DNA of 41,323 nt from Escherichia coli (GCF_003334405.1 NZ_QOWM01000024.1), one strand, 5' to 3'; shown: positions 1 through 260, counted from the first letter of the stretch. The notes: generated from the letters alone by a model not told the origin. Numbers and translations are program-made.

Positions 1-24
1 GCTTTCAGCTCACTGTCGCGAGGT

Positions 25-60
25 GGCGTATATTACGCTTTCCTCTTTCAGAGTCAACCC
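25..60 (-). promoter_or_regulatory. rrnD P2 promoter (rRNA operon, transcribed leftward out of window)
   Basis: Minus-strand reading gives TTGACT (plus 52-57), 16-bp spacer, TAATAT (plus 30-35), then GC-rich discriminator GCCACC; sits about 110 bp downstream of the P1-like promoter as expected for rrn tandem promoters. Confidence 0.55.
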
Positions 61-133
61 TGAATTTCAGGATTTTTTTCTCTTCGTTGTTCCGACCATC
101 CTGTGAAGTGTTTCACGTTGTCGTCTCAACGGA

Positions 134-170
134 GGCGCATTATAGGGATCCCAATTTTTTGCACAAGTAT
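134..170 (-). promoter_or_regulatory. rrnD P1 promoter with GCGCC discriminator
   Basis: Minus-strand reading CTTGTGC-aaaaaattgggatccc-TATAAT-GCGCCTCC: -10 TATAAT at plus 139-144, -35 TTGTGC at 161-166, 16-bp spacer; matches the rrn P1 pattern remembered from rrnB P1. Confidence 0.6.
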
Positions 171-260
171 TTTTTTGATCTTTTTTTCTGTTTGTTGTTT
201 TTTCACCCTTTTTGCTGCAATCGCACACAAAACGGTGCTTTTTTGCATACTAAAAGACTT
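167..260 (-). promoter_or_regulatory. rrn UP element / upstream activating region with phased T-tracts (likely Fis region)
   Basis: T-tracts at 171-176, 181-187, 198-203, 209-213 spaced about 10-11 bp immediately upstream of the P1 -35; typical of the rrn P1 UP element and bent DNA. Confidence 0.45.

What the first reader, a model, noticed from the sequence alone, without database searches (positions are those of the whole stretch)
1..260. Window opens inside the rrnD control region: tandem P1 and P2 promoters on the minus strand with phased T-tracts upstream
Two sigma70 promoters about 110 bp apart, both with GC-rich discriminators, read leftward out of the window. Phased T-tracts at roughly 10-bp intervals lie upstream (173, 184, 200, 211). 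yrdA starts only about 150 bp beyond this region, so yrdA expression could be coupled to Fis and growth-rate control of the rRNA promoter.
Basis: partly seen in the sequence, partly recalled or inferred. Interest (0 to 1): 0.3.

Follow-up and report, generated by a model that had tools for sequence, protein, structure and literature searches.

The report
E. coli rrnD rRNA promoters P1/P2
The first 260 bases of the window are the well-studied control region of the E. coli rrnD ribosomal RNA operon (promoters P1 and P2, UP element, Fis sites), so the finding is correct but ordinary; only the suggested coupling to the neighbouring gene yrdA remains open.

Summary
The window is E. coli chromosome, identical to K-12 MG1655 over bases 1-330. 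The 16S gene of rrnD (16S-Ile-Ala-23S-5S-Thr-5S) starts 156 bp left of position 1 on the minus strand.

- **P1:** -35 TTGTGC 166..161, 16-bp spacer, -10 TATAAT 144..139, discriminator GCGCCTCC 138..131, +1 G at about 130.
- **P2:** -35 TTGACT 57..52, -10 TAATAT 35..30, discriminator ACGCCACC. The two promoters are 109 bp apart.
- **T-tracts:** their centres are at 173, 184, 200.5 and 211, as reported. They form two in-phase pairs about half a helical turn apart, not one phased array.
- **What the tracts are:** the first pair is the UP element (-40..-57). The third is the A/T core of Fis site I (194-208, centre -71). Its flanking G and C are invariant in all seven E. coli rrn operons and in 25 enterobacterial genera.
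- **yrdA:** the ATG is at 319, which is 59 bp beyond position 260, not 150 bp.

Coupling of yrdA to Fis or growth rate is untested. One new point: a candidate yrdA promoter (TTGCAC-N17-CAAAGT, 259-287) lies exactly 92 bp from the P1 -35 in 20 of 21 genera.

The parts
1..21 (-). First ~21 nt of the P2 transcript (rrnD leader). The boxB/boxA antiterminator and the 16S gene lie further left, outside the window.
   Evidence: Alignment with the other six rrn leaders. rrsD 5' end is 156 bp left of position 1. The P2 +1 at about C22 is inferred from deletion end-points in PMC5110994 and was not measured here.
22..57 (-). rrnD P2 core promoter: -35 TTGACT 57..52, 16-bp spacer, -10 TAATAT 35..30, discriminator ACGCCACC 29..22.
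   Evidence: The sequence is identical to P2 of rrnH and rrnE.
59..79 (-). Inverted repeat CCTGAAATTCAGG (59-71) and an A7 tract (73-79, about -51..-57 from P2) just upstream of the P2 -35. This is a possible UP-like or curved segment for P2.
   Evidence: Predicted curvature peaks at 65-75, above the 99th percentile of the window. Conserved in rrnH and rrnE. Function not tested.
130..166 (-). rrnD P1 core promoter: -35 TTGTGC 166..161, 16-bp spacer, -10 TATAAT 144..139, discriminator GCGCCTCC 138..131, +1 G at about 130.
   Evidence: The -10 and discriminator are invariant in all 7 rrn operons and in 25 genera. Literature: PMC7045392, PMC5110994; GTP sensitivity in PMC9239199.
170..187 (-). 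UP element of P1, with two A7 subsites in rrn sense: proximal 170-176 (-40..-46) and distal 181-187 (-51..-57). A conserved GATC (177-180) separates them.
   Evidence: Mean column identity is 0.86 across 25 genera, and the GATC is present in all 25 sequences. UP elements at all seven P1 promoters are described in PMC4696680, citing Hirvonen 2001.
194..208 (.). Fis site I core, GGGTGAAAAAACAAC in rrn sense, centred at 201 (-71). The T-tract 209-213 ('211') flanks it.
   Evidence: It occupies the same position as rrnB P1 site I. The G and C at +/-7 are invariant in all seven E. coli operons (G115, C129) and in 25 of 25 genera, with a 96% A/T centre. Binding was not tested here.
214..228 (.). Second Fis-like 15-bp core, GCTGCAATCGCACAC, centred at 221 (-91 from P1, about -74 from the predicted yrdA start).
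   Evidence: The G and C at the ends are invariant in 25 of 25 genera. The match to the Fis consensus is weak in E. coli. Inference only.
259..287 (+). Candidate yrdA promoter: -35 TTGCAC 259-264, 17-bp spacer, -10 CAAAGT 282-287, predicted +1 at about 292-295. In E. coli it also resembles a sigma32 promoter (CTTGCAC-N13-CCCCCAAAGT).
   Evidence: Both hexamers are conserved with an exact 17-bp spacer of variable sequence in 21 of 25 genera. The candidate -35 lies 92 bp from the P1 -35 in 20 of 21 genera. No TSS data could be retrieved.
310..873 (+). yrdA (b3279), a gamma-carbonic-anhydrase-family hexapeptide-repeat protein: SD GAGGT 310-314, ATG 319, stop at 873.
   Evidence: Annotation. The SD and ATG are conserved across genera, while sequence upstream of the SD is not.

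Best explanation
Bases 1-260 are the control region of the E. coli rrnD ribosomal RNA operon, read on the minus strand.

- **P1** (+1 at about 130) is the strong, growth-rate-regulated promoter. It has a perfect -10, a 16-bp spacer, a weak -35 and a GC-rich discriminator. Together these give a short-lived open complex that is sensitive to ppGpp/DksA and to the initiating NTP, which here is GTP.
- **UP element:** P1 strength comes partly from the two A7 tracts at -40..-57, which are bound by the alpha-subunit C-terminal domains of RNA polymerase.
- **Fis:** further activation comes from Fis bound upstream, with site I centred at -71 (window 194-208).
- **P2** lies 109 bp downstream and is the basal promoter.
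- **T-tracts:** They also make the DNA strongly curved in prediction.

Shown here: the identity, coordinates, homology and conservation of the elements. Taken from the literature: binding of alpha-CTD and Fis, and the regulation.
For: - The first 900 bases match K-12 MG1655 and many other E. coli genomes at 100%, and a place covering at least 80% of them is found in 5421 of 5426 complete genomes.
- rrsD starts 156 bp left of position 1, and the operon layout is that of rrnD.
- In the alignment of all seven rrn upstream regions, the P1 -10 and discriminator are invariant and P2 is identical to rrnH and rrnE.
- rrnD has G where the other six have the +1 A. This matches the published GTP dependence of rrnD P1 (PMC9239199).
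- Published discriminator mutations map to window 135-138 (PMC7045392).
- The rrnD P1 -10 TATAAT and upstream Fis sites are described in PMC5110994.
- UP elements and 3-5 Fis sites at all seven P1 promoters are described in PMC4696680.
- The P1 core has 95% column identity across 25 genera, the UP element 86% and the Fis I block 80%.
- The Fis I G and C at +/-7 are invariant in paralogues and orthologues.
- Predicted curvature is in the top 0.2-0.5% of the window.
Against: - There is no real evidence against the identification.
- Transcription starts were not measured here.
- The primary paper on rrnD UP and Fis sites (Hirvonen et al. 2001, PMC100122) could not be read, so the exact published Fis-site positions at rrnD are not confirmed.
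- A strict degenerate Fis consensus finds no hit in 1-330, and my heuristic Fis score is poorly discriminating.
- Deleting fis lowers rrnD promoter activity least of the seven, to about 75% of wild type (PMC4696680).
Confidence: 0.97

Rival explanations
1. The four T-tracts act mainly as one intrinsically curved, helically phased A-tract array that wraps DNA around RNA polymerase or recruits H-NS or Lrp, rather than as specific binding sites.
For: - Predicted curvature in 175-190 and 205-245 lies in the 98th to 99.9th percentile of the window under two wedge models.
- Each pair of tracts is in phase, with resultants of 0.99 and 1.00.
- From memory, not verified here: Hillebrand et al. 2005 (Biol Chem) reported that all seven rrn upstream regions are curved, rrnB and rrnD the most.
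Against: - The two pairs are about 146 degrees out of phase at 10.5 bp per turn. The resultant for all four is 0.29, and predicted curvature dips at about 195.
- The tracts coincide with the UP subsites and the Fis I core. At those places specific flanking bases (GATC, G194, C208) are conserved, not just A/T content.
- The wedge parameters were recalled from memory.
Confidence: 0.25
2. yrdA expression is coupled to rrnD P1. The divergent yrdA promoter would share the Fis sites, or respond to negative supercoiling or local RNA polymerase density generated by P1. yrdA would then follow Fis levels and growth rate.
For: - The candidate yrdA promoter (259-287) lies inside the region that PMC5110994 treats as holding the rrnD Fis sites (-60 to -397).
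- The spacing from the P1 -35 to the yrdA -35 is exactly 92 bp in 20 of 21 genera, although the sequence of 218-257 is only 65% conserved.
- The two invariant G..C cores lie at -71 and -91 from P1 and at about -94 and -74 from the predicted yrdA start, which is nearly a mirror arrangement.
- The divergent yrdA-rrn arrangement is seen in 57 of 80 species representatives, from Enterobacterales to Vibrionaceae and Aeromonas.
Against: - No expression data link yrdA to Fis or growth rate. Literature searches for yrdA with Fis or rrnD gave nothing relevant.
- The yrdA start site is only predicted.
- Fixed spacing could simply reflect constraints on the rrn upstream activator region.
- Fis has the smallest effect at rrnD of the seven operons.
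- Pseudomonas yrdA homologues have no rRNA gene upstream.
Confidence: 0.25
3. yrdA is driven by an independent promoter that is at least partly sigma32-dependent (CTTGCAC-N13-CCCCCAAAGT, 258-287). The neighbouring rRNA promoter would be irrelevant to it.
For: - There is sequence resemblance to the sigma32 consensus CTTGAAA-N13-14-CCCCATNT (the consensus is from memory of Nonaka et al. 2006).
- A sigma32 ChIP-chip study listed yrdA as a target (cited in PMC2996942).
Against: - Both sides of that debate set the yrdA signal aside because it lies next to repetitive rrn sequence (PMC2996942; PMC3738151).
- The CCCC run is not conserved outside Escherichia, whereas TTGC..N17..CAAAGT is. That fits a weak sigma70 promoter better.
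Confidence: 0.15

Closest known systems
E. coli rrnB P1 / P2 (the paradigm rRNA promoters; Gourse laboratory)
   Same: - The architecture is the same: an A/T-rich UP element at -40..-60, Fis site I centred at -71 with G and C at +/-7, a 16-bp spacer, TATAAT, a GCGCC(A/T)CC discriminator, and a second promoter about 110-120 bp downstream.
- The leader that follows carries boxA and then the 16S gene.
   Different: - The rrnD P1 -35 is TTGTGC, not TTGTCA.
- Its +1 is G, not A, so it senses GTP.
- Its UP element is two pure A7 tracts split by GATC, instead of AAAATTATTTTAAATTT.
- P1 and P2 are 109 bp apart, versus about 120 bp.
- The rrnD P2 is the rrnH/rrnE type (TAATAT/ACGCCACC), not the rrnB type (TATTAT/GCACACC).
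- The fis effect is the smallest of the seven.
Phased A-tract curved DNA upstream of strong stable-RNA promoters (for example the tyrT upstream activator with helically phased Fis sites; from memory)
   Same: An A/T-tract-rich, predicted-curved segment lies directly upstream of a stable-RNA promoter and overlaps the Fis sites.
   Different: The four tracts are not one in-phase array. They form two pairs offset by about half a turn, and two of them are the UP element itself.
Divergent promoter pairs coupled through shared sites or transcription-induced supercoiling (for example ilvY-ilvC; from memory)
   Same: Two back-to-back promoters have predicted starts about 165 bp apart, and the intervening length is strictly conserved.
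   Different: Coupling has not been demonstrated for yrdA and rrnD. The yrdA start and its regulation are unknown.

Membership tests
Enterobacterial rrn P1 promoter | Lies upstream of, and in the same orientation as, a 16S-23S-5S rRNA operon. | tested here: met
   The rrsD 5' end is 156 bp left of window position 1 on the minus strand, and the full rrnD layout follows it.
Enterobacterial rrn P1 promoter | Core of -35 TTGxxx, a 16-bp spacer, -10 TATAAT and the GC-rich discriminator GCGCC(A/T)CC. | tested here: met
   The elements lie at 166..131 on the minus strand. The -10 and discriminator are invariant in all 7 operons and in 25 genera.
Enterobacterial rrn P1 promoter | An A/T-rich UP element at about -40 to -60 that is bound by alpha-CTD. 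| tested here: inconclusive
   The sequence criterion is met: A7-GATC-A7 at -40..-57, conserved across genera. Alpha-CTD binding cannot be tested with these tools and is reported in the literature (PMC4696680).
Enterobacterial rrn P1 promoter | Fis sites upstream, with site I centred near -71. | tested here: inconclusive
   A 15-bp core at 194-208 has invariant G and C at +/-7 and an A/T centre. Fis activation of rrnD P1 is cited in PMC5110994.
Enterobacterial rrn P1 promoter | Transcription starts 9 nt after the -10, and activity is controlled by iNTP and ppGpp. | not testable with these tools
   G at 130 aligns with the +1 A of the other six operons. GTP dependence comes from the literature.
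rrn P2 promoter | A second sigma70 promoter about 110-120 bp downstream of P1, upstream of boxA in the leader. | tested here: met
   TTGACT-N16-TAATAT lies at 57..30, 109 bp from P1, and is identical to rrnH and rrnE P2. boxA follows in L002.
Helically phased A-tract (intrinsically curved) DNA | Three or more A/T tracts repeated in phase with the helix, about every 10-11 bp. | tested here: not met
   The spacing is 11 / 16.5 / 10.5 bp. The resultant for all four tracts is 0.29 at 10.5 bp, and only the pairs are in phase.
Helically phased A-tract (intrinsically curved) DNA | Predicted or measured curvature well above background. | tested here: met
   There are two lobes, 175-190 and 205-245, in the top 0.2-0.5% of the 41-kb window under two wedge models.
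Co-regulated divergent promoter pair (yrdA / rrnD P1) | A divergent promoter lies within the shared upstream region. | tested here: inconclusive
   TTGCAC-N17-CAAAGT (259-287) is conserved, with exact spacing, in 21 of 25 genera. No experimental start site could be retrieved.
Co-regulated divergent promoter pair (yrdA / rrnD P1) | Expression of one gene depends on the other's regulators or activity. | not testable with these tools
   No relevant expression data were found.

The most novel reading that the evidence does not exclude
The yrdA promoter and rrnD P1 may form a rigid, evolutionarily fixed divergent unit:
- The two -35 hexamers are 92 bp apart in 20 of 21 enterobacterial genera.
- Two invariant Fis-like cores sit nearly mirror-symmetrically between them, at -71 and -91 from P1 and about -74 and -94 from yrdA.

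If so, the gamma-carbonic-anhydrase-like YrdA would be co-regulated with rRNA synthesis, through shared Fis binding, through supercoiling generated by P1, or through both. That would tie an enzyme of unclear physiological role to ribosome production across Enterobacterales and possibly Vibrionaceae.
Probability: 0.2. Interest if true: 0.4.

Novelty: already known. Interest (0 to 1): 0.1.

Why it matters
As it stands the finding re-identifies one of the best-studied promoter regions in bacteria, so it adds nothing new. Its value is as a positive control showing that the first-stage reader can recognise rrn P1 and P2 from raw sequence.

The only open element is the yrdA side. The divergent yrdA-rrn arrangement is conserved from Escherichia to Vibrionaceae and Aeromonas, and within Enterobacteriaceae the inter-promoter distance is fixed to the base pair.

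If that reflects shared regulation, it would give a physiological clue for YrdA. It would also be a natural example of a protein-coding gene tied to rRNA promoter activity. The question can be settled cheaply with reporter fusions.

Tried and rejected
- **Generic sigma70 scan:** it found P2 but missed P1, because the -35 matches only 3 of 6 positions. The scan is not informative for this promoter class.
- **Fis consensus searches:** the strict patterns GNNYRWWWWWYRNNC and GNNYRNNWNNYRNNC gave no hit in 1-330. My heuristic Fis score flags about 7% of all positions and so discriminates poorly. I replaced it with positional homology and phylogenetic footprinting.
- **Fis-like core at -144 (window 267-281):** it scores well in E. 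coli but is not conserved across genera, so I did not count it.
- **Experimental yrdA start site or Fis-regulon data:** look-ups in supplementary tables all failed, either with no occurrences or with no files held. Papers tried: PMC4782308 (Cappable-seq), PMC4161252, PMC3415461, PMC3064808 and PMC10301672.
- **Hirvonen et al. 2001:** the primary source for rrnD UP and Fis sites is not held.
- **Rfam:** nothing reached the gathering threshold in 1-600. A sub-threshold match to Ysr197 (50.8 bits against a gathering score of 167) covers 1-213 on the minus strand. I read it as rrn leader and promoter homology, not as an sRNA.
- **Extended ORF 103-873 (GTG start):** rejected. Conservation begins only at the SD and ATG 319, and the annotation agrees.
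- **Plus-strand 'terminator-like' hits at 25-39 and 59-71:** rejected as terminators. They fall in the P2 spacer/-10 and in the repeat upstream of P2, and nothing is known to be transcribed into them on the plus strand.

Full report
**What the window is.** The first 900 bases match E. coli K-12 MG1655 and many other E. coli genomes at 100%. A place covering at least 80% of them is present in 5421 of 5426 complete E. coli genomes. Over its whole length the window differs from NC_000913.3:3428918-3470240 by seven transitions, none of them in 1-330. Window position w therefore equals genome position 3,428,917 + w.

In two MG1655 records the 16S gene rrsD (b3278) lies on the minus strand with its 5' end 156 bp left of window position 1. 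It is followed by tRNA-Ile, tRNA-Ala, 23S, 5S, tRNA-Thr and a second 5S, which is the layout of rrnD.

**The promoters.** On the minus strand:

| Promoter | -35 | Spacer | -10 | Discriminator |
|---|---|---|---|---|
| P1 | TTGTGC 166..161 | 16 bp | TATAAT 144..139 | GCGCCTCC 138..131 |
| P2 | TTGACT 57..52 | 16 bp | TAATAT 35..30 | ACGCCACC 29..22 |

The -10 hexamers are 109 bp apart. A generic consensus scan reports P2 only, because the P1 -35 matches 3 of 6 positions. The case for P1 rests on homology instead.

- In an alignment of the regions upstream of all seven MG1655 16S genes, the stretch TCCCTATAATGCGCC is invariant.
- P2 of rrnD is identical to P2 of rrnH and rrnE.
- rrnD is the only operon with TTGTGC at the -35, and the only one with G at the position of the +1 A.
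- That fits the literature: ATP starts six of the seven P1 promoters, while rrnD P1 responds to GTP (PMC9239199).

Two independent papers place the same elements where I place them. Discriminator mutations of the rrnD promoter at 3429052, 3429054 and 3429055 map to window 135, 137 and 138 (PMC7045392). The rrnD P1 -10 is given as TATAAT, with Fis sites in the -60 to -397 interval (PMC5110994).

The P2 start at about C22 is inferred from that paper's deletion end-points. It was not measured here.

**The T-tracts.** Plus-strand T-runs lie at 170-176, 181-187, 198-203 and 209-213. Their centres are 173, 184, 200.5 and 211, exactly as reported. Further runs lie at 155-160 and 239-244.

The cluster is real:
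- It is the only 50-bp span in 41 kb with four same-strand T>=5 runs.
- None of 200 Markov-1 simulations of the window reached that count.
- 6 of 5000 mononucleotide shuffles of 167-260 did so.
- A Markov-1 model that inherits the local TT richness did so in about 10% of trials.

The phasing claim holds only in part. The spacings are 11, 16.5 and 10.5 bp. Each pair is in phase, with resultants of 0.99 and 1.00, but the pairs are about 146 degrees apart at 10.5 bp per turn, and the resultant for all four is 0.29.

A wedge-model curvature calculation used parameters recalled from Bolshoy et al. 1991, plus an AA-wedge-only control. It gives two lobes, at 175-190 and 205-245, each in the top 0.2-0.5% of the window, with a dip at about 195. 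This agrees with the phase analysis.

**What the tracts are.** Relative to the P1 start, the first two tracts span -40..-46 and -51..-57. That is the UP-element position, and the rrn-sense sequence is CAGAAAAAAAGATCAAAAAAATA.

The third tract is the A/T centre of a 15-bp core, GGGTGAAAAAACAAC (window 194-208, centre -71). It occupies the same position as Fis site I of rrnB P1. The G and C at +/-7 are invariant in all seven E. coli operons (G115 and C129 of the rrnD row). They are also invariant in 25 of 25 enterobacterial genera, where the centre is 96% A/T. The fourth tract flanks this site.

A second pair of invariant G and C, 14 bp apart, defines a Fis-like core at 214-228 (-91). Its match to the consensus is weak in E. 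coli.

UP elements and three to five Fis sites at each rrn P1 are established knowledge, and deleting fis affects rrnD least, at about 75% of wild type (PMC4696680). I could not read the primary paper, Hirvonen et al. 2001. The exact published Fis positions at rrnD therefore remain unchecked.

**The yrdA side.** The yrdA ATG is at 319, with the SD GAGGT at 310-314. That is 59 bp beyond position 260 and 153 bp from the P1 -35.

I scanned one genome per species with the YrdA protein and kept 80 loci.
- In 73 of them the gene lies within 1 kb of a contig end on its upstream side. This is the signature of a collapsed rRNA repeat.
- 57 of the 80 show rrn P1, P2, boxA or 16S sequence divergently upstream. 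These include Erwinia, Pantoea, Serratia, Morganella, Providencia, Salinivibrio, Enterovibrio, Vibrio and Aeromonas.
- The five Pseudomonas loci have no rRNA gene within the upstream sequence held (1.5-2.5 kb).
- In Enterobacteriaceae the P1 -10 lies 163-179 bp from the yrdA ATG.

A 25-genus alignment of the intergenic region shows these mean column identities:

| Block (window) | Identity |
|---|---|
| P1 core (131-166) | 95% |
| UP element (167-189) | 86% |
| Fis I block (190-217) | 80% |
| 218-257 | 65% |

The alignment also shows two conserved hexamers, TTGCAC (259-264) and CAAAGT (282-287). Their spacer varies in sequence but is exactly 17 bp in 21 of 25 genera. That is the pattern expected of a sigma70-type promoter, with a start near 292-295.

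The distance from the P1 -35 to this -35 is 92 bp in 20 of 21 genera. By contrast the distance from the -10 to the ATG varies from 30 to 35 bp. With this geometry the two invariant G..C cores lie at -71 and -91 from P1 and at about -94 and -74 from the predicted yrdA start.

I found no expression or start-site data for yrdA.

In E. coli the same segment also resembles a sigma32 promoter. A sigma32 ChIP-chip signal at yrdA was reported, but both sides of the published debate set it aside because the site adjoins repetitive rrn sequence (PMC2996942; PMC3738151).

**Verdict.** The feature is the textbook rrnD P1/P2 control region and is already known.

- The T-tracts are the UP element and the Fis site I core and flank. 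They form two curved lobes, not one phased array.
- yrdA begins 59 bp beyond the stated region.

The yrdA-coupling hypothesis is untested. I give it about 0.2-0.25 on the strength of the conserved geometry.

Interest is low (0.1). If the coupling proved real, interest would be about 0.4.

Noticed in passing
window 259-287 (+): A conserved TTGCAC-N17-CAAAGT motif is a candidate yrdA promoter. Its distance to the rrnD P1 -35 is fixed at 92 bp in 20 of 21 enterobacterial genera, although the sequence in between is only about 65% conserved.
   Followed up: partly
window 177-180; aligned columns ~219 and ~229 in loci L010-L059: A GATC (Dam) site sits between the two A7 subsites of the rrnD UP element and is present in all 25 sequences aligned. 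Most other genera carry two more GATC sites about 10 bp apart at the positions of window ~219 and ~229 (14 and 16 of 25 sequences), which E. coli lacks. The significance is unknown.
   Followed up: partly
window 467-472 (-), inside yrdA: CATAAT on the minus strand is the -10 hexamer of an antisense RNA within yrdA, reported by Dornenburg et al. 2010. Mutating it did not change yrdA::lacZ expression (PMC2912661). That transcript would read toward the rrnD upstream region.
   Followed up: partly
window 59-79 (-): The inverted repeat CCTGAAATTCAGG and an A7 tract lie just upstream of the P2 -35. They are shared with rrnH and rrnE and have predicted curvature above the 99th percentile of the window. 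They may act as a UP-like element for P2.
   Followed up: no
window 1-213 (-): A sub-threshold Rfam match to Ysr197 (Yersinia sRNA 197) scores 50.8 bits against a gathering score of 167, with E = 4e-11. This suggests that the Rfam family is built on the rrn P1-P2 leader region rather than on an independent sRNA.
   Followed up: no
loci L009-L069: Many draft-genome contigs that carry yrdA are about 25-26 kb long and have yrdA within a few hundred bp of one end. I infer that the other end falls at tufA, a duplicated gene, which would bracket a conserved block (yrdA ... alpha/spc/S10 ribosomal protein operons) in species lacking the gsp-bfr-chiA insert seen in this window at 24.6-41 kb. I did not inspect the far ends of the contigs.
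   Followed up: no
alignment, position of window 130: The G start of the yrdA-adjacent P1 is not universal. Only 6 of the 21 genera tabulated (Escherichia, E. albertii, Kosakonia, Enterobacter sp. Bisph1, Phytobacter, Siccibacter) have G; the other 15 have A, as do the other six E. coli operons.
   Followed up: partly
window 4019, 9811, 23875, 28733, 36672, 37195, 41007: Seven transitions distinguish the window from MG1655. Other natural E. coli strains match 3900-28800 at 100.0% (rounded) identity. The source is therefore a K-12-like strain rather than MG1655 itself.
   Followed up: partly
window 13522-13633 (-): The Alpha_RBS element (RF00140, 102.7 bits) upstream of rpsM is the only Rfam family above its gathering score in the whole window. 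The S10 and spc operon leaders were not reported.
   Followed up: no
locus L041 (Pantoea sp. IMH) 1-2000: The rrn operon next to yrdA in this Pantoea has a single tRNA in the 16S-23S spacer, whereas E. coli rrnD has Ile plus Ala. The promoter-yrdA junction is therefore conserved while the operon body differs.
   Followed up: no
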